Positions 6,001 through 54,692 of a stretch of 64,000 nt of DNA are shown here, piece after piece. A program made the translations under genes and the position numbers. The notes beneath the pieces were generated by a model. It was not told where the DNA came from, searched no databases, and saw nothing but the letters and a program-made list of their open reading frames with translations. This DNA comes from Trypanosoma brucei. Taxonomy: Eukaryota. How positions within the stretch are numbered: position 1 is the stretch's first letter; the number at the start of each line of letters is the position of its first letter. The DNA is taken from assembly GCA_000002445.1 (NCBI GenBank), contig CM000207.1, forward strand, positions 2,496,001 through 2,560,000, written 5' to 3'.

Positions 6001-8097
6001 CAAGTGAAAAAATGAGAGATTCAGCTCAGTGCCATGTTCGTCCGTCATTTCAAAGAAGTATCTTCGGAGGTTTTGGTTTATAAGGAGCATGACGTCGGCG
6101 GGCGTTCTGGAAGGAAGGAAAAAGGGGAAGGAAGTTCCCAACTAAATAAGAAAAGAGACCTAGAAACCGTACATTCGTTTACCTCGGCGTCCTACACCGC
6201 AAACGCTGGGAAGGGAAAGGACACCAACGGGAGCTGCGGAGCAGCGTACAGGCCAATACAAGAAATCACAGCGGCTAGTCCCCAATTTCTAAAACTTCTA
6301 AACCAAATAAAACAGTTCCCATCACCGAAGGCGCCCGCGCATAAGGAAAGAACGAGGCTGCAACAACAAATGACAACCATTCATCACACTATTCTCCATT
6401 TTACCATCCGGAAGAAGTGCAGCACCGCATTCACCATGCTTCAGTATTACCAAACAAAGAATGACATTGCCAATATGCTCACATGATGGCCAAACACAAA
6501 CATTTCCAAAACAGGAAAGCCCAGTAAAAAAAAACCATTTAAAATAAAAAACAAACTGTAACGCAACAACGTCATACTAAAAGGGAAACAATATATTCGA
6601 ATCAATAATTATAATAGTCGAAATAAATAGTTAACACAAACATAAATACAAAAAAATCATTTAAAATAATAGAGCAAACAAACATAATTACGCACCACTA
6701 TGTTATTTTCTTTTTCCAACAGCATTGCAATCAAACTATTTACGGCAACATTCCGCCAATTTTAGATGCTGGTACACAATGTTCCTCACGGCGTATTGTT
6801 GTGCAAAACAGTGTTACCATGCAATTCGCAACCTTTTTGTACTCAAAAAACACGCCTTTCTGTACAACATGCTCCATGCGGGATAATTGATGCACAAAAT
6901 GTGCATTTTGTGCCATAATAGAAAATGCAATAGTAGGCAATAAGGCGTATTTGATGTATGGGCTTCGATTTCGTATCTATTTTTGCTTAAACCACTTTGC
7001 TGTTGTTCGGTGAAAGGTGTCGAGGACAACTGGGGTTACAATTGGTGCCGCTTTTGAGTGGTATAGAGGAGAAAAGCCACCGCTGAATACGCTTGTCTCA
7101 AGTTCTGCTTACCGCAGGTGTTACCGGCCGTGCCCGATTGTTTCCGTTGGCCATCTTCGTGTGCTTTGTTACTAGAAACTTCATATCTGCATCTGTTCAC
7201 AGTTTCTGGCCAAACTTCGTTTTCCATCTACAAAGTTATCCCTATCTTGCCCATGGAGCTTTCTGATAAACTGAAAGCACATATCTTTTCTATGAATTAG
7301 CATCCCTTCGCGAACTTACTACTAAACATTTGGTTTCCGCCATCACATTAAAAACCGCAGTGTCAACCATTTTCGGTGTTACATTTATACATTCTTGAGT
7401 TATTTACGGCAAATAATCTCCTCTCGTGTCATTTTTCTCTTTCTGCTATAATTTCACGCACTCTCTTGTTCTATTCTATATTTCTATTTCTTTAGTTTTA
7501 ATCTTCTGTTTTTATCACTGCAAATATCATCTCGACTTCTTTGGCTTCTGCACTGGATTCTCTCTTTCCCTCATATCATTGCATATAATAATACCAATCA
7601 TCATGTTTGTGCTTGAAGTTGCGCGCATTCCATCTCCCTTTACCTCGATCCTCCTCACTCACTTACTGTCCCACTTACCCACTTTCACTCATTGAACTCT
7701 TTTAACTCTTGTAACTCTTATAACTCTCCTAAGTGTTTTATTTTCCCTATTACTTAGGTCTTTAAAACCTCAATTCTTATAATATTGCTTCTATTGTTAT
7801 AATGCCCTCAACCACTGTTACCATTACTATAGCCATAACCCTTAAATACTCTCAATACTCATAATATCAACAAATAATAAAAATAGACCATATTAGAATA
7901 GCACTCATTTTTCATTCCATATTATTACAGTGCCTTGCTCCTATAGGCCACGATCATAACAAAACTACGTATTTTTCATATTCTCAAAAATTTATAAATC
8001 TTCACATTTTCATGAAAAAGTGTTAAAATATAGTAAAATCTCATAAAATAGGAATTTTCATAAATTTTCATGAAATTGCGTAAAAATCCTTAAAATG

Positions 8098-10800: not shown

Positions 10801-13285
10801 GGTAAAAAGTAAATGAGTGGTGAATATAAAAGATTTTAAACAATATAATGGTCGAAATGGACGTAAGTGAGTAAAAGAGATAACACGATTAATGTTATTA
10901 GAGAAAACACGGAAATACAGAAAGAGAGATGGTATATTGAACAGAAGCAGTTTCAAATATGAATATGGATAGGGGCATCATTATACACAACGAGATGACG
11001 AATGGAAAAATAAGGGAGAGACAAAGTTCAGTGACCAGGTTAACTTCTGGCGCTATGTTATGTGCAAAGTATCGGAAGTTAGCGGAAAGATAGAAACAAA
11101 AATAGAAACCGAAACACATGTATCTGTGACCGCCACTGTTTCAGAGAATTTACAACCTAAAGAATGTATTATTTTCTTCAATATGAGACCGTCACTAGAA
11201 GTAAATTGCATAGAATGTTTTTTACCCAATGAATCAGCTACTGGTTGCAGTTAAATTCTCTTAAACTAGCAAAAACAGCACCAAAGTTTGAAAGACTGGC
11301 AGTAAACGGAAATACGCAATGAAGTATAAACGTTGAGAACAAAAAAAGGTTGCATTGCTTCAAAAGTAGCTAAGACACACTGACACTTAGTATCCCTTTA
11401 CACTCGAGGTAATTGTCAAGATTATTGAATAGAATCAAGTATTTTGTTGTTTTTCTAGAACGAAGACAGGTAGAGACGTGGAAAGTGCATCCCAAATGAC
11501 GGAAGCAGTAAACTGAAAACAAGATGACTTAGTAGAGGTTGATTGAATCTACCTTAGTTTATAGAAACCACAGTAGTCTAGCTGTTTCATACAAGGTTCT
11601 TGTTTCCCTAAAGCTTTCGGTCTCGCTATGTTTAAAAGGAGTCAAAATATAGCACACAAATATAAAAATAAATATCTCAAATGGAAGAAACAGGAGCACT
11701 TAAGTTACGAAGGGAAGTAGTCTCAAGGAAACTAGTAGCACCGACTCTTCTTCAATGTTCATAACGTCCATACGAAAAAAAAGATGAAACACATATAGTA
11801 TGGACCTGAATTGGCTGTACAGTTAGAAGGTGTGACTACAAAGGAAATTAAAAATGATCGGTGCGATCAACCGGCAAGCCTCAAAAAAAACATATTTCAC
11901 TCAAAGCTGGATAGATACAGAAACGGAGATAATGGTGACGATCATGTTTTTAATCCGTTTGGAGTTTCTAATATAAAGTTATAGATACCCAGAAATGTAT
12001 TGGATAATTGTGAGGTGCTATAAAAATTTCTTATGGTATTTAGTAATAATGGAAAACATTGTTGGAAACAATATAATATTATCGGAAGGAGAACTTTACA
12101 TATAGAATTGCTAATGGATGACAGTGGAAAGGAAAAATAAAGCAAAGAAAGTGATTAACACAGGATGTTTATGGAGGAATTATTTATGAATTAGAGGGAA
12201 TTAACAGCAACATTCCTGTAATTTCGTATTGATATACTGGACACGCATTAGGATATTTCAAGGAACAAGTAATCTATATAAAAGCAGTCAATGGTGAACA
12301 AATGACGGTTGCCATTAACAAGTTAATCCAATAAACAAAAGCTCCCAAAGCACAAATGTCCAGTTATTAATAGAAAGAGGAACATCCACGCCTAGGATTT
12401 CGAACAAAAGAAAAAAGCTAACCTTTTTTTTGTAAAAATAAGCAATGTTACATTGTTATTCGACCTGCGGCACCTGGAGCCAATATTGCAGTAAGTAAAA
12501 CAAGCGAACGCCATTGAGGTTAAAAATTTAAGATATAGAGGCTTTTTAGATTATTTGCAAAAACATAAGGGTTTAGTGGTAGAGGAATAAATGAAAAATT
12601 TGATACGCCTGCAGCGGCAGTGGACAAGATTAGTGTAAGTGACTCTAAGTGAGATACAAAGAAACATGACAGAAACTGCCGGCACCAACGTTTAACAGAA
12701 CGCATTTTCCGACCGATTCGGAGGTTCATATCCGCGTTTGAACTTCAACGTCAGAAATCCTACAACAGCAACAGAAACCCATAATTAAACAGCAGAGAAG
12801 CAACAGCCTGTAGTACCTGCGCAGTTTCGAACAAATGTTGCGGCGTGCGCGAACCAGAGTGACATCGAAAACATAAGTTTTCAAAGCGCTATCATCGATC
12901 CACACAAAAGAACAACCAAAATGGAAATTCACAACGGCTTATTCAGAGGCGCTATCCAAAGCCCTGACCACTGCCCGTCGCTGGCAAATGCAGCAATAAC
13001 TGGCTGAGAACCAGCGGTCAAAGGGAAGGAAATGCAATATGAAAAGGGAGCTGTCCACGATCCACGTCATCGCCAACAAACACTTTTCTTTGAACCACAA
13101 AACCGCACAAGACAACGGTAATGCCCTCAGGAAGAGACAGGATAGACCTACAGATCGAATAGCTGTCTCCCTAACCACACAAAAAACCAAGGTGGATACT
13201 CTTAACTTACAAAAATTCACTTTAGGAAAGCGAAACACAGCAAGGTCTAGAGATTCTAAGGGAAAAAGCCCAGAAGTCCGCAGTT

Positions 13286-33275: not shown

Positions 33276-33439
33276 ATGTTTTCTATTTTATGTGTGAAGA
33301 GATTTGCTAAAATTTGCAATATTTTAACACTTTGTGATGAAACTCTGCAAATTAGTCAAATGTGTATGATGGTGGCCCATAGGTAAAACTTATTAGTAAC
33401 ACAGTGTTAAAAATAATTGATATTGTAAAATGTATTCTA

Positions 33440-33570
33440 GTTCAATTTATTTTGATTATATAATAATAATAATTATTATTATTATAACAAATAAAAATAA
33501 ATAGTAATAATAAGATGAAAGTGTTGTAAGTGTGGATATACGAATAGTATAATAAGAGTGGTGGTGAAGG
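33440..33570 (+). repeat. 70-bp repeat block
   Basis: ataataataattattattattataacaaataaaaataaatagtaataataagatgaaagtgttgtaagtgtggatatacgaatagtataataagagtggtggtg. Confidence 0.7.
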
Positions 33571-34599: not shown

Positions 34600-34631
34600 C
34601 AAATAATAGATACATATAAATAAATAAATAA

Positions 34632-34667
<36 letters not shown>

Positions 34668-34692
34668 ATATATCGATATATATCATAAGTAA
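34600..34692. repeat. Compound microsatellite (AAAT)n(AT)n with CGATATATAT duplications
   Basis: aaataaataaataaataaatatatatatatatatatatatatatcgatatatatcgatatatat. Confidence 0.9.
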
Positions 34693-34811
34693 AAATGCAA
34701 ACTTGTTAAAGAATAATATTTAAATCATGCCACAACTGACTTCCTTTTTTTATTTTATACAATAACTTTATGATGTATTCAAGGTTTTCATTAGTATGAA
34801 AGTAATATCTT

Positions 34812-35912
34812 ATGAAGTATTTAGGGAGTATTTATGCAACAGTAGTTTTTTTAGTTTTTATTGTTATGGGGATTAATATACTTTTGTCACTATACAGCGT
34901 TTTTGGTGAAGGAGATTCTATTTCGCTTGAAATTGTTGTGAATGAGTATATGAGGTTCATGTCAACAGATTTAAGGACGATTTGGCAAACTGAAGATTAT
35001 TTGGTCGTTGCTTGAATACCTTCAACAGATGATGATGAGAGATTTAGAAGGAGGAATCTACAGAGAGAAACATGTTGGAGTTACCCTAAAGTGGAAAGAC
35101 GAGCAAATAATTTTGCTGGGAAATTGCTTATAGTATATGCCCTTTCCCCTCATACAAAAAACAATTGCGAGCTCAGAGAAATTGTTGAAGGAGAGGCAGA
35201 GTTAAATCAGGATGTTATTATTTTACTTGTATGCAATGTAAATCCAGGAACAAATAAAAAATTTGGAGATGCAGGTAATTGGGGATGGGAAGCAGAACTC
35301 ATGATTAGTAGAAAAACATATTTGTGGTTCAAATTCGAAGTTGAGACATTAAAGCCAACTAATCCTTATAAAATGAAAGCAGATGATGATATATTTATGA
35401 GGGCGCCATTGTATCTAAAATATCTGGAGGTGCTTCCAAGGGAGAAATTGAATATGGGAAGAGCAATGGGTCATGTTGACGACAGCATCTGGAGGATGAG
35501 ATGGCACGCCGTTGGGTATGCAAACACACTTTCAAGAGATGTCGTGGAAGAAATAGTTGGCTATTCAGGCCTTTGTAAACTATTATTCGAAAGAATCAGC
35601 TTTAGAAACTTTGAAAAATACATAGATTATGGCGCGCTTAACGAGGATATTATGGTTGGAGAAGTTATAAGGAATAAGTTGAAAATTGAAGGATTACTGA
35701 CAGTGGATATGCAAGATTGTCATTATGCGATGAATGTACAAAGGCCACTCGACCCATTTGTAGAAGACAATCCTAACCTTATTGTTTTACACCACATTGC
35801 CAACGATGAATACAGATGGCTCATGTTACACTGTCAAGCCCTAGCGCCACATAACCAGCAGCCACCATCAATATTTCAAATTACAGCGTTTTGGCATGAA
35901 TTTACATGCTAG
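34812..35912 (+). pseudogene. Beta-1,3-glycosyltransferase-family (trypanosome GT67-like, UDP-Gal/UDP-GlcNAc-dependent) gene with a single in-frame TGA at 35013-35015
   Basis: ATG 34812 gives MKYLGSIYATVVFLVFIVMGINILLSLY, a type II signal-anchor. The same frame continues after the TGA through ...DDDERFRRRNLQRETCW (R-R-x-x-x-R-x-T-W-like beta3GT motif) into ORF 35091-35912, which carries the DxD signature KADDDIFMRAPLYLKYL. Confidence 0.6.
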
Positions 35913-36075: not shown

Positions 36076-37620
36076 ATGCGCCTGATATCTTTGGAAGTGG
36101 CTGCATTTATTGTACTACGCTCCACAAAACCTGCCAATATAGCCGACGCAGCAAATAAGGCGGAGCATGCAGCGCTGTGCAATTTTATTTCGATGGCTGG
36201 GAGAGTCATAGCGGTACCAACGGTCCAGCCACTAGACACCGAAAACTACGCCTATATTCAGCAATTAAACTTCGCGCTCGGCGACCAGCAATGGCAAGAA
36301 AAGTTCTACAAAAATTCCGACAGGAAAGGAGTCAAAGATACAGCAGCCGAGGCCGGCATAACAGGTGAGGGAGCAGCCGACATGTGGGCAGACCTAAAAA
36401 AAGCGGCGGAAGCCTTGAAAAGTGATAGCCAAAATCCACTACTCAAGGAATTAGAGGAAATGAAGCTAACAGCAGCGGCCAGGCGACTGGCAAAGGCCGA
36501 GCTGGAGAGTCTGACAAATGAGTCAAGGGAGATAAAAAAGATGTATCCGGATCCACCCAAAAATGTCGACTACGAAAATAACAATCCCAAAAGCAAATTA
36601 CTAGCAGCATTACTGGGCGCAGGCAACGCAGACGTAGGGACAGCGACAGGTCAAAAGGCAGTCGGGGCAGCAGCAACTGCAACACGTCAAGCCACCTGTA
36701 CAGCAGGCGAAAAAACAACGGCGAGGCCTGCAAGTGCTTTGGCAATGTTAGCTTGCGTATGTCAAAGCTCGGGCACGGCAGTGACAAACTTTATTTGCAC
36801 AGAGAAAGCCAAGGATTCAAATGCATGGACGGGCAACGCATACCCACACGACACCGGGCTACGGCATATCGGCAAATCATGCCCAAAAGCGAGAGACGAT
36901 CCAGTCACAACGACGGAGTTAGAAACGGCCCTAAACAATTTGCTAGCACTAATTCACACAGACGGAACGCACGAATACCTTGGAGCATACGTACAGACTG
37001 GCTGCGATGGCACCTCACCAAATGGCATCTGTGTGCAGTTTCCAGACCTAGCGACCAGCGCTCCTGAAGTCGCCACGAGAGACACATGGCTGGCGACCGT
37101 CGCGGAAATAATACAAAATCTAAAGATCCTTGAAAACAACCAGGCAAAGGCAGAATACGTAAACAACCAAATAAAAGACAAAAAACACCGAGCACTCGCA
37201 GCATTAAGGCGAAGCAAAGCTATTGCCGGGGCCATTCAAGTTCCAACACCACAAACCGCACAGAAACCAAAAATTGGCGTAAATACTCGATGCGAGGCAC
37301 ACAACAAGTCGAAAGCAGCATGCTTAGGAGCTAAATGTAAATGGGGAGGGCAAAAGGATGATGACGGCCCATGCAGTCCCAGCGAAGAACAAGCTGCAGA
37401 AGAGGAAAAAGAAACAGCTGGAGAAGCAGTAACAGGAACAGCAACAGAGAAATGCAAAGGGAAACTAGAACCCGAATGCACAAAGGCTCCTGAATTCAAA
37501 TGGGAAAATAGTGCTTGCAAAGATTCCATTTTTCTCGTCAATAAGAAATTTGCTCTGAGTATGGATGCTGCTTTTCTGAGTTTGGTAGTATTTAGGTATT
37601 TTATAATTCTAGCATTTTAA
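36076..37620 (+). CDS. VSG: Apparently intact VSG (514 aa): signal peptide, N-terminal domain, Cys-rich C-terminal domain and 23-aa-class GPI signal
   Basis: ATG 36076 gives MRLISLEVAAFIVLRSTKPANIADAANKAEHAALCNF... The ORF is uninterrupted and ends ...KCKWGGQKDDDGPCSP...CKGKLEPECTKAPEFKWENSACKDSIFLVNKKFALSMDAAFLSLVVF... A 16-mer-like TGATAATTCTTAACAC lies at 37694-37709. Confidence 0.85.
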   Translation: MRLISLEVAAFIVLRSTKPANIADAANKAEHAALCNFISMAGRVIAVPTVQPLDTENYAYIQQLNFALGDQQWQEKFYKNSDRKGVKDTAAEAGITGEGAADMWADLKKAAEALKSDSQNPLLKELEEMKLTAAARRLAKAELESLTNESREIKKMYPDPPKNVDYENNNPKSKLLAALLGAGNADVGTATGQKAVGAAATATRQATCTAGEKTTARPASALAMLACVCQSSGTAVTNFICTEKAKDSNAWTGNAYPHDTGLRHIGKSCPKARDDPVTTTELETALNNLLALIHTDGTHEYLGAYVQTGCDGTSPNGICVQFPDLATSAPEVATRDTWLATVAEIIQNLKILENNQAKAEYVNNQIKDKKHRALAALRRSKAIAGAIQVPTPQTAQKPKIGVNTRCEAHNKSKAACLGAKCKWGGQKDDDGPCSPSEEQAAEEEKETAGEAVTGTATEKCKGKLEPECTKAPEFKWENSACKDSIFLVNKKFALSMDAAFLSLVVFRYFIILAF

Positions 37621-37693: not shown

Positions 37694-37709
37694 TGATAAT
37701 TCTTAACAC
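37694..37709 (+). promoter_or_regulatory. VSG 3'UTR 16-mer variant
   Basis: TGATAATTCTTAACAC (two mismatches to the consensus). Confidence 0.5.
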
Positions 37710-53080: not shown

Positions 53081-54598
53081 ATGACAGAAGGAAAACTCAT
53101 CGCAAAGGCGATATACCTAGTGACTCTAAGCACTGTGATCGCGACAGCAGAAGCCGACCCAGCAGCCGAAGCCAATAGTGCGACAACAGATTTCTGCACG
53201 CTATTAGCATATACAAACAGCGTTGTCGACACTCTGAAGTTGTGGCTAACAGCCCCGGCAAAACCGACAAAAGATTTAGAGGAACAGGTCAGACTACTTA
53301 GCCTGGCAGAAGCAAAGCACTACGGCACACCCAGCGGCATCGCGTATTCGACACTGAGGGCTATATCCCAGGACCGGTTAGAAAAACAAATAAAGAAGCA
53401 AGATGCAGCGACAGCGACAATTGCAGCAGCGCTAAAAGTTTTCGCAGCCAAAGCAGCAGAAACCAAAGTGCTAGGGGCAGCCACGGAGCAAGCTGAGCTC
53501 AAGAGCTGGACGCATGCAACAGACGGCGGCAGCGGCAAAGTGCTGACCACCGGCAGCGGCACCAGCACAAAAATCTGCAAAGCTACCAAGCAGGCGCCAG
53601 TCACTTACACCAAAGAATGCAAAAACAGCGGCGGGGACTTGCAAAAAGCGCAGCAGATAGGAGGAGCTCTAAAGACAGCAAAAAAACTCAAAATCTACAG
53701 CGACACAGCACTGTCACTCGGCTCAATAGAAATACAGTTCGAGGCCGTGGGCAACCTAGGCACCAGCAATTCGTGGACCGCGGGGACGGGGAACACTCAC
53801 TGCCAGCAACACAGCGGTGCGGCAAGCGCAGCGGAGTCGGCAGCGGCAGGAACCGCGCTCTTTTCGGTAAAAGTAACCAACAAGATAACACCGGCAGAAA
53901 TAACGCTGGCACAAGCAGCAAGCGCCCCCTTAAACAGAAACCTAGAAGCCTCAGGCGACAACAAGAAACTGCTGACAGCGGACAAAGACATAGCGGAAGC
54001 ATTAGTAGCAGCTCAAGCGGTGGTGTTTGAAAGCGAACGGCCTCTAAAGGACGAGAAACTAGCAACACTAACAGGAACATCTGCGGCCCAAGCCATGTAC
54101 GCTGCATTAGCAGCCAAACAAGGGAAAACATCGACAACAGGGCCAACTAGCGACGAGGTATCCAAACTACTGTTCAACAAGGGAGATACGGCCAGCGTAT
54201 CCGACTTTTTAACAACACTAAACTCAGACACCAACAGCATCGCCGACGGAGACAAGCCAATAACGGGAAGCACGCAATCAATTGCAGCAGGGGCTAACTT
54301 TCGGAAGGCAATGACTTACTTTTATGCAATGAACCTTAAAAAGTCAACAAAAGCATCAGGAAGCGAGAAACCAGAAGGAGACGCCAAAAAAAATGCAGCA
54401 GACAAAAAAGAAGAAAAGAAAGACGGGGATAATAAAACAACTGCAGCTGATTTCACAGGAACTGAGGAGGATAAATGTGACAAGACAAAGTGTGATTGGA
54501 ACAAGGAAAAGAATGAGTGCAAAGTTAAGGAGGGAGCAGTTGTTATTTCTGCTGTGATTAATGCCCCTCTTTTGCTTGCATTTTTGATTCTAGCTTAA
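53081..54598 (+). CDS. VSG: Apparently intact VSG (505 aa) with 17-aa-class GPI signal
   Basis: ATG 53081 gives MTEGKLIAKAIYLVTLSTVIATAEADPAAEANSATTDFCTLLAY... The ORF is uninterrupted and ends ...FTGTEEDKCDKTKCDWNKEKNECKVKEGAVVISAVINAPLLLAFLILA-stop. A 16-mer AACATATTTTAACAC lies at 54693-54707. Confidence 0.85.
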   Translation: MTEGKLIAKAIYLVTLSTVIATAEADPAAEANSATTDFCTLLAYTNSVVDTLKLWLTAPAKPTKDLEEQVRLLSLAEAKHYGTPSGIAYSTLRAISQDRLEKQIKKQDAATATIAAALKVFAAKAAETKVLGAATEQAELKSWTHATDGGSGKVLTTGSGTSTKICKATKQAPVTYTKECKNSGGDLQKAQQIGGALKTAKKLKIYSDTALSLGSIEIQFEAVGNLGTSNSWTAGTGNTHCQQHSGAASAAESAAAGTALFSVKVTNKITPAEITLAQAASAPLNRNLEASGDNKKLLTADKDIAEALVAAQAVVFESERPLKDEKLATLTGTSAAQAMYAALAAKQGKTSTTGPTSDEVSKLLFNKGDTASVSDFLTTLNSDTNSIADGDKPITGSTQSIAAGANFRKAMTYFYAMNLKKSTKASGSEKPEGDAKKNAADKKEEKKDGDNKTTAADFTGTEEDKCDKTKCDWNKEKNECKVKEGAVVISAVINAPLLLAFLILA

Positions 54599-54692
54599 CA
54601 CTTTTAAGAATTATTGGCAAATTCTTTTTTCTAAATTTTACAAAATTACAAAATTTTTTATTTTGAGAGTGATTTTTAAATCGTTAAAATTT

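What the first reader, a model, noticed from the sequence alone, without database searches (positions are those of the whole stretch)
34812..35912. Glycosyltransferase (beta3GT/GT67-like) pseudogene nested in the upstream region of an intact VSG
A type II membrane-anchor start (MKYLGSIYATVVFLVFIVMGINILLSLY), an RRxxxRxTW-like motif and a K-x-DDD-x-F DxD signature identify a beta-1,3-glycosyltransferase-family gene. It is broken only by one in-frame TGA (35013-35015), and it ends just 160 bp before the VSG ATG at 36076. Non-VSG genes inside array cassettes are uncommon. One stop may indicate recent inactivation.
Basis: partly seen in the sequence, partly recalled or inferred. Interest (0 to 1): 0.55.

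Follow-up and report, generated by a model that had tools for sequence, protein, structure and literature searches.

The report
Dead glycosyltransferase gene beside a VSG
This is a trypanosome Golgi-type sugar-transferase gene (GT67 family) switched off by a single premature stop codon, sitting just upstream of a surface-coat (VSG) gene in Trypanosoma brucei; the reference genome already annotates it and such remnants are a known minor part of these regions, so it is ordinary.

Summary
Window 34812-35912 (+) reads as 366 codons with one internal TGA at 35013-35015. The other five frames carry 14-32 stops.

The TGA replaces a nearly invariant Gly (VVA-G-IPS) found in every homologue. [quoted passage not shown]
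- It is 60-74% identical to four T. brucei TREU927 paralogues (E 1e-108 to 4e-152) and about 35% identical to full-length 377-aa T. cruzi enzymes.
- It has an N-terminal membrane anchor and the WG, KADDD and EDIMVG motifs.
- The predicted structure is a GT-A fold closest to human B3GNT2 and B3GalT5.

It lies inside a VSG cassette, between a 70-bp repeat (about 33.5 kb) and the VSG ATG (36076).

It is not new. The 3' 203 codons are 100% identical to XP_827740.1, annotated on TREU927 chromosome 9. Published genome papers list glycosyltransferases and their pseudogenes as about 1% of subtelomeric genes.

Most likely it is a non-functional gene that was inactivated recently. A sequencing error or a strain polymorphism at codon 68 could not be excluded with these tools. 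Interest is low.

The parts
34812..35912 (+). GT67 (UDP-Gal/UDP-GlcNAc-dependent, beta3GT-superfamily) glycosyltransferase pseudogene: 366 codons, colinear with full-length homologues, one internal stop
34830..34895 (+). Type II signal-anchor (residues 7-28, IYATVVFLVFIVMGINILLSLY)
   Evidence: KD19 max 2.6 at residue 7. It aligns with the anchor of P0005 and of the T. cruzi enzymes
35013..35015 (+). In-frame TGA (codon 68) replacing a nearly invariant Gly in the motif YLVVA-G-IPS. GGA to TGA is the inferred single-base change
   Evidence: G68 nearly invariant
35040..35078 (+). RFRRRNLQRETCW, the conserved basic / R-x-T-C-W block at the start of the catalytic domain
   Evidence: (R80, L83, Q84, R85, C88, W89 invariant)
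35277..35291 (+). NWGWE, the GT67 'WG' motif
   Evidence: motif definition from PMC9472816
35367..35396 (+). YKMKADDDIF, the GT67 Y(I/V/F)xKxDDD motif (DxD, 35382-35390). The second position is K instead of I/V/F
   Evidence: Pfam PF01762 partial hit at residues 166-215
35640..35660 (+). NEDIMVG, the GT67 ED(A/V/I/L/M)(M/L)x(G/A) motif
   Evidence: PMC9472816
35301..35912 (+). The part annotated in the public reference: 203-aa ORF, 100% identical to XP_827740.1 / EAN77410.1 / Q38CR0 (T. b. brucei TREU927, 3,057,547-bp contig)
34740..34783 (+). Polypyrimidine tract (34740-34751) and first downstream AG (34782-34783), 30 nt before the ATG. A possible trans-splice acceptor, inferred only
   Evidence: sequence
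33455..33570 (+). 70-bp-repeat-like element, (TAA)n run plus GTGTTGTAAGTGTGGATATACGAATAGTATAATAAGAG, marking the 5' side of the VSG cassette that contains the pseudogene
   Evidence: Related elements lie upstream of other VSGs at about 10.7, 16.1, 20.3, 26.7, 37.9 and 54.9 kb
36076..37620 (+). Downstream VSG ORF (514 aa; VSG_B N-terminal domain plus VSG C-terminal domain) of the same cassette

Best explanation
A copy of a kinetoplastid GT67-family Golgi glycosyltransferase gene lies inside a silent subtelomeric VSG cassette on T. brucei TREU927 chromosome 9. The family uses UDP-Gal or UDP-GlcNAc, has type II membrane topology, and has a GT-A fold with a DxD metal and nucleotide-sugar site. The gene has been inactivated by a nonsense mutation at codon 68 (Gly to stop). 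Translation from the authentic ATG would stop after the membrane anchor and stem, before the catalytic domain, so no enzyme is made. The locus is a passenger of subtelomeric duplication and recombination and has no role in the neighbouring VSG. Because the remaining 298 codons are still open and colinear with active-type homologues, the inactivation is recent relative to the age of the paralogue. SHOWN: the frame, the stop, family membership, the motifs, the predicted fold, the position in the cassette, and the existing annotation. INFERRED: the GGA to TGA change, the lack of function, and the recency.
For: Family membership:
- E about 1e-44 to 1e-47 to 377-aa T. cruzi and 388-aa T. rangeli proteins.
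- A profile search gives 155 family hits, all trypanosome GT67-type.

Lesion: the alignment is colinear from the anchor to the C-terminal Cys with no frameshift, and the stop falls on nearly invariant G68.

Motifs and fold:
- WG, KxDDD and EDIMVG are present (definitions in PMC9472816).
- The AlphaFold2 model of residues 69-366 has pLDDT 85.1 and pTM 0.86.
- Top Foldseek PDB hits are human B3GNT2 (E 3e-9, TM 0.58-0.62), B3GalT5, B3GalT6 and C1GalT1.

Decay beyond the stop:
- This copy has 11 departures at 64 positions that are >=90% conserved, including A176E and F180L beside the DxD.
- Its PF01762 score is 17.2 bits against a 23-bit cut-off, whereas paralogues score 28-32 bits.
- Its terminal NJ branch is 0.142, against 0.08-0.09 for P0001 and P0002.

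Recency: 5.3% of possible substitutions would be nonsense. P(<=1 nonsense) falls to 0.02 at 10% neutral divergence, yet the copy differs by 26% at the protein level from its nearest paralogues.

Context: the 3' element of the preceding VSG is at 33315, the 70-bp repeat at about 33.5 kb, the VSG at 36076-37620, and its 3' element at 37694.

Literature:
- Glycosyltransferases make up 1.1-1.5% of subtelomeric genes (PMC2854126).
- Glycosyltransferase pseudogenes are frequent in subtelomeres and variable between strains (PMC4288722).
- UGT lineages 1 and 7 have expanded in subtelomeres (PMC5853035).
- The count of 19 GT67 genes is given 'excluding predicted pseudogenes' (PMC8477195).
Against: - The lesion is a single base. 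Without reads or other strains, a sequencing error or a TREU927-specific allele cannot be excluded.
- The whole sub-clade (P0001, P0002, P0004, P0005) departs from family-conserved positions at a similar rate, 10-22%. Part of the apparent decay is therefore clade divergence, not post-inactivation drift.
- No expression data were available here.
- dN/dS could not be computed, because no paralogue DNA was retrievable.
Confidence: 0.86

Rival explanations
1. The gene is actually intact. The TGA would be a sequencing or assembly error in the reference, or an allele private to this haplotype or strain, and the locus would encode a functional 366-aa type II GT67 enzyme.
For: There is only one lesion. 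All catalytic motifs are retained and 298 downstream codons are open. A plausible splice acceptor lies 30 nt upstream of the ATG.
Against: - The reference annotators also did not call a full-length ORF here, only the 203-aa 3' ORF.
- This copy alone falls below the Pfam threshold because of substitutions next to the DxD.
- Its branch is longer than those of P0001 and P0002.
- None of the four sister copies has a complete gene model either.
Confidence: 0.07
2. A truncated protein made from an internal ATG has a function. One candidate is the annotated 203-aa product starting at 35301.
For: That ORF is what the database annotates as a putative glycosyltransferase.
Against: - It would lack the membrane anchor, the RRxxxRxTCW block and the WG motif. 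These are the N-terminal half of the nucleotide-binding GT-A domain, strands and helices 1-110 of the model.
- No family member with that architecture appears among the full-length homologues. The short hits are flagged 'partial'.
Confidence: 0.02
3. The TGA is decoded, by readthrough or selenocysteine, so that a full-length enzyme is produced.
For: None beyond the otherwise intact frame.
Against: All homologues have Gly, not Cys or Sec, at this column. The stop is followed by A (TGA ATA), which from general knowledge is not a context known to favour readthrough. No SECIS-like feature was sought or seen.
Confidence: 0.01
4. The dead copy is retained as raw material. It would act as a donor for segmental gene conversion among subtelomeric GT67 paralogues, analogous to VSG pseudogenes, or as cargo co-transposed with the VSG.
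For: It lies between the 70-bp repeat and the VSG, the segment normally copied during duplicative VSG activation (general knowledge of VSG switching). Subtelomeric UGT lineages show expansion by transposition (PMC5853035).
Against: Pereira and Jackson report that these T. brucei genes 'rarely recombine' and found no gene-conversion signal. Nothing in this window tests the idea.
Confidence: 0.04

Closest known systems
[quoted passage not shown]
   Same: It is this very locus: 100% identity over 35301-35909.
   Different: The public model covers only the 3' 55% of the gene. The 5' 163 codons, including the anchor, the stop at codon 68 and the first two motifs, are not part of it.
Sister copies in TREU927: XP_803396.1 (P0001, chr 9, 345 aa), XP_844696.1 (P0002, 1.59-Mb chromosome, 289 aa), CAJ16295.1 (P0004, 327 aa), CAJ16899.1 / Tb10.v4.0188 (P0005, 254 aa)
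   Same: 60-74% identical, the same sub-clade in an NJ tree, and the same motifs.
   Different: Each has a different defect in its gene model. The P0001 N-terminus is an out-of-frame reading of the stem region. P0002 and P0004 start at internal Met47. P0004 and P0005 diverge or stop early at the C-terminus. The window copy is the only one colinear over the full length.
Characterised GT67 enzymes of T. brucei (TbGT3, TbGT8, TbGT10, TbGT11, TbGT15) and other full-length members (e.g. V5NBQ4 / P0104, 377 aa)
   Same: Type II topology, the WG / KxDDD / ED-x-M-x-G motifs, and a length of about 370-390 aa (PMC9472816, PMC8477195). P0104 is 39-42% identical, depending on the alignment columns compared.
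   Different: Those are intact, expressed enzymes with defined linkages. This copy has a premature stop, and its sub-clade has no characterised member, so donor and linkage specificity cannot be inferred.
Human GT31 beta-1,3 transferases (B3GNT2 PDB 7JHL/6WMM; B3GalT5 8ZWP; B3GalT6 9SP7)
   Same: The predicted GT-A fold superposes with Foldseek E 3e-9 to 1e-7 and TM about 0.55-0.62. The DxD region aligns.
   Different: Only 14-18% sequence identity. Sequence-only search of the PDB is not significant (E 0.2). CAZy places the trypanosome proteins in a separate family, GT67 (PMC9472816).

Membership tests
GT67 (kinetoplastid UDP-Gal/UDP-GlcNAc-dependent glycosyltransferases, beta3GT superfamily) | Significant full-length sequence similarity to family members | tested here: met
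   E 4e-152 to 6e-44. The alignment is colinear over 77-90% of the query with 377-aa T. cruzi proteins.
GT67 | Motif 1 'WG' | tested here: met
   GNWGWE at residues 155-160 (35277-35291 covers NWGWE). W157 and G158 are nearly invariant. Motif definition from PMC9472816.
GT67 | Motif 2 Y(I/V/F)xKxDDD (the DxD) | tested here: met
   YKMKADDD: Y186, K189 and D191-193 are invariant columns and are present. The second position is K instead of I/V/F, a substitution unique to this copy.
GT67 | Motif 3 ED(A/V/I/L/M)(M/L)x(G/A) | tested here: met
   EDIMVG at residues 278-283.
GT67 | Type II membrane topology (short cytoplasmic N-terminus plus a single signal-anchor) | tested here: met
   Hydrophobic segment at residues 7-28, KD19 2.6. 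It aligns with the anchors of P0005 and the T. cruzi proteins. This is a sequence-level prediction only.
GT67 | GT-A fold related to the beta3GT (GT31) enzymes | tested here: met
   AF2 model pLDDT 85.1 / pTM 0.86. Foldseek gives B3GNT2 at E 3e-9, with B3GalT5/6 and C1GalT1 also hit.
GT67 | Uninterrupted ORF / transferase activity | tested here: not met
   In-frame TGA at codon 68. It is therefore filed as a pseudogene of the family, not as an enzyme. Activity itself is not testable here.
Pfam PF01762 Galactosyl_T (GT31-type domain) | Score at or above the 23-bit gathering threshold | tested here: not met
   17.2 bits, E 0.0047, residues 166-215 only. Paralogues P0001, P0002 and P0005 score 28-32 bits and T. 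cruzi P0006 scores 36.8.
Pseudogene | Disabling lesion at a position conserved in functional homologues | tested here: met
   The stop replaces nearly invariant Gly68, upstream of the whole catalytic domain.
Pseudogene | Lesion real in the organism (not a sequencing error), and no protein product | not testable with these tools
   No trypanosome reads, other-strain assemblies or expression data are reachable. The look-up of encoding contigs returned nothing.
Silent VSG array cassette | 70-bp repeat upstream, a VSG ORF, and a conserved 3' 16-mer downstream | tested here: met
   70-bp-repeat-like element at 33455-33570. VSG_B plus C-terminal domain ORF at 36076-37620. 16-mer-like element at 37694, with 3 mismatches.

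The most novel reading that the evidence does not exclude
The glycosyltransferase lies between the 70-bp repeat and the VSG, so it would be copied into the active expression site whenever this VSG is activated by duplicative gene conversion. If the syntenic copy is intact in other strains, or the TGA is an error, this would be a VSG-linked glycosyltransferase expressed only together with one particular coat protein. That would couple glycan processing to antigenic variation.
Probability: 0.03. Interest if true: 0.6.

Novelty: already known. Interest (0 to 1): 0.12.

Why it matters
It matters little.

There is modest value for curators of the T. brucei GT67 repertoire. None of the five TREU927 members of this sub-clade has a gene model covering the full-length architecture, which bears on counts of 'functional' GT67 genes. 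It also gives one more example of non-VSG cargo inside a VSG cassette.

Tried and rejected
- Direct PDB sequence search with the single protein gave nothing. With the profile it gave only E 0.2 to B3GNT2, so fold comparison was needed.
- The look-up of encoding contigs for P0003, P0001 and P0002 returned no records. No paralogue DNA was obtained, so no dN/dS, no synteny and no other-strain comparison could be done.
- The DNA collections available (phages, plasmids, E. coli, prokaryotic genomes, metagenomes) do not cover trypanosomes and were not queried.
- blastn of the 2.8-kb inter-VSG region against the rest of the window found only 70-bp-repeat and 3'-element similarities. The GT-bearing spacer is not duplicated locally, and tblastn found no second GT copy.
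- The supplements of PMC5853035 and PMC8477195 did not hold gene tables. The TriTrypDB gene ID and the Pereira-Jackson lineage of this copy could not be assigned.
- Chance ORF was rejected.
- Selenocysteine or readthrough was rejected because the column is Gly in all homologues.

Full report
**Observation**

The interval 34812-35912 on the + strand starts with ATG and ends with TAG. It reads as 366 codons with one internal stop, TGA at 35013-35015, which is codon 68. The other five frames of the same interval contain 14-32 stops. For this base composition the probability of at most one stop in 366 codons is about 3e-12, so the frame is real coding sequence or was until recently.
- the hydrophobic N-terminus, residues 7-28, 34830-34895;
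- RFRRRNLQRETCW, 35040-35078;
- YKMKADDDIF, 35367-35396.

The ORF stop is 163 nt upstream of the ATG of a 514-aa VSG ORF at 36076-37620. That ORF carries a VSG_B domain (E 1.3e-67) and the VSG C-terminal domain (E 1.4e-23).

**Identity of the sequence**

- Four paralogues from T. brucei brucei TREU927 are 60-74% identical (E 9e-108 to 4e-152).
- 377-aa T. cruzi and 388-aa T. rangeli proteins are about 35% identical (E about 1e-44 to 1e-47).
- A fifth hit, P0003 (203 aa, XP_827740.1 / EAN77410.1 / Q38CR0), is 100% identical to 35301-35909. It is recorded on a 3,057,547-bp TREU927 contig.

The window therefore appears to come from T. b. brucei TREU927 chromosome 9. The chromosome number is my inference from contig size and accession block. 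The 3' part of this very locus is already annotated. A profile search gave 155 hits, all trypanosome proteins of this family. Only one copy is present in the window.

**Anatomy**

In alignments with paralogues and full-length T. cruzi, T. rangeli and other T. brucei members (A1, A2), the sequence is colinear from the membrane anchor to the C-terminal Cys, with no frameshift. The TGA falls on a nearly invariant Gly (YLVVA-G-IPS), so a single GGA to TGA change is the simplest inference.

The three motifs that the literature gives for GT67 are WG, Y(I/V/F)xKxDDD and ED(A/V/I/L/M)(M/L)x(G/A) (PMC9472816). All three are present: GNWGWE, YKMKADDD and EDIMVG. One deviation is K instead of I/V/F after the Tyr.

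An AlphaFold2 model of residues 69-366 built on 45 sequences is confident (pLDDT 85.1, pTM 0.86). Its best PDB matches are the GT31 beta-1,3 transferases B3GNT2 (E 3e-9, TM 0.58-0.62), B3GalT5, B3GalT6 and C1GalT1. This is a GT-A fold of the beta3GT kind. Sequence-only comparison with the PDB was not significant.

**Evidence that it is a pseudogene, and how old the lesion is**

A stop at codon 68 would terminate translation after the anchor and stem, before any catalytic element.

There is further mild decay.
- At 64 alignment columns that are >=90% conserved, this copy departs 11 times, including A176E and F180L right beside the DxD.
- Its PF01762 score is 17.2 bits, below the 23-bit cut-off. 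Paralogues P0001, P0002 and P0005 score 28-32 bits and a T. cruzi enzyme scores 36.8.
- Its terminal branch in an NJ tree is 0.142, against 0.08-0.09 for P0001 and P0002.

However, the sister copies also depart from conserved positions at 10-22%, so part of this is sub-clade divergence.

On timing, 5.3% of all possible single-base changes in the ORF would create stops. The chance of seeing at most one nonsense falls to 0.21 at 5% neutral divergence and to 0.02 at 10%. No frameshift is present either. This copy differs by 26% at the protein level from its nearest paralogues. Most of that divergence must therefore have accumulated while the frame was being maintained, and the inactivation is recent relative to the duplication. 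This is an inference. A proper dN/dS test needs paralogue DNA, which I could not obtain.

**Context**

The window is a head-to-tail silent VSG array. Twelve VSG 3' 16-mer-like elements lie on the + strand. Several VSG ORFs and fragments are present, and 70-bp-repeat-like elements precede the VSGs.

The cassette in question runs as follows:
- the 3' element of the preceding VSG pseudogene at 33315;
- a 70-bp-repeat-like element at 33455-33570;
- a purine-rich spacer;
- an (ATAA)n/(TA)n microsatellite at 34606-34683;
- the GT pseudogene;
- the VSG, with its 3' element at 37694.

This cassette is about 4.4 kb, against 3.0-3.8 kb for its two upstream neighbours. That is consistent with about 1.1 kb of extra GT sequence. 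The GT thus sits in the segment that would be co-copied with the VSG. The spacer has no other copy in the window.

**Comparison with what is known**

GT67 is a well-described, kinetoplastid-specific family derived from a beta3GT ancestor. It has 19-20 genes in T. brucei 'excluding predicted pseudogenes' (PMC8477195; PMC9472816). Its lineages 1 and 7 have expanded in subtelomeres (PMC5853035). Glycosyltransferases make up 1.1-1.5% of subtelomeric genes in T. b. brucei and T. b. gambiense (PMC2854126). Glycosyltransferase pseudogenes are reported as frequent in subtelomeres and variable between strains (PMC4288722).

A GT67 pseudogene in a VSG array is therefore an expected, already catalogued kind of object, and this particular one already has a database entry. 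What this analysis adds is that the entry is the tail of a full-length gene with one nonsense codon.

**Side observation on the sub-clade**

The annotated N-terminus of paralogue P0001 (MYFCLYTACLVRVTLFHLKLLKMS) matches the +2-frame translation of the window copy's stem region at 16 of 24 positions (IYFCHYTAFLVKEILFRLKLL*MS). That gene model is therefore frameshifted relative to the ancestral frame and lacks the anchor. P0002 and P0004 begin at the internal Met47. P0004 and P0005 diverge or stop early at the C-terminus. None of the five TREU927 members of this sub-clade has a gene model for the full 366-377-aa architecture, and the window copy is the most complete. The sub-clade may be decaying as a whole, but that rests on protein models only.

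**Rivals**

- A sequencing error or a strain-specific allele at one base cannot be excluded here (about 7%).
- A functional 203-aa fragment is unlikely because it lacks half of the nucleotide-binding domain.
- Recoding of the TGA is unlikely because the column is Gly in all homologues.
- A role as recombination donor or as cargo co-transposed with the VSG is speculative and untested.

**Verdict**

The object is ordinary and already known, so interest is low.

Noticed in passing
window 43821-48401 (-): An intact 1526-aa ORF with AP-endonuclease, reverse transcriptase (RVT_1, E 4e-43), RNase H and C2H2 zinc-finger domains. It is a non-LTR retrotransposon of the ingi type, inserted in the VSG array on the opposite strand.
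   Followed up: partly
window 37525-37620 (C-terminus of the VSG ORF 36076-37620) and 37694-37709: The 'intact' VSG has an unusual tail after CKD, SIFLVNKKFALSMDAAFLSLVVFRYFIILAF (31 aa, with an Asp in the hydrophobic stretch). The upstream pseudogene ends with the shorter ...SSSFLVNKKFALSKATLMSFVVF. The VSG's 3' 16-mer has 3 mismatches. It may be an 'atypical' VSG with a compromised GPI signal.
   Followed up: no
window 34876-35022 (+2 frame) compared with protein P0001 (XP_803396.1): The annotated N-terminus of the chromosome 9 paralogue P0001 is the out-of-frame translation of the homologous stem region (16/24 identical). That gene model is frameshifted and lacks the membrane anchor. P0002, P0004 and P0005 are also incomplete, so no TREU927 member of this GT67 sub-clade has a full-length model.
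   Followed up: partly
window 34606-34683: An (ATAA)n followed by a (TA)n microsatellite, 78 bp (sequence), about 130 nt upstream of the GT start codon. It could mark the 5' edge of the GT-derived segment within the cassette.
   Followed up: no
window 53081-54598 (+): A 505-aa open ORF in VSG-array position, followed by a 16-mer-like element at 54692. It has no significant Pfam N-terminal VSG domain and only a weak C-terminal domain hit (E 0.018, 15.9 bits). It is possibly a divergent VSG.
   Followed up: partly
window 8020-8035 and 11639-11654 (-): Two VSG 3' 16-mer-like elements lie on the minus strand, while twelve lie on the plus strand. This suggests a local inversion or oppositely oriented cassettes near the start of the window.
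   Followed up: no
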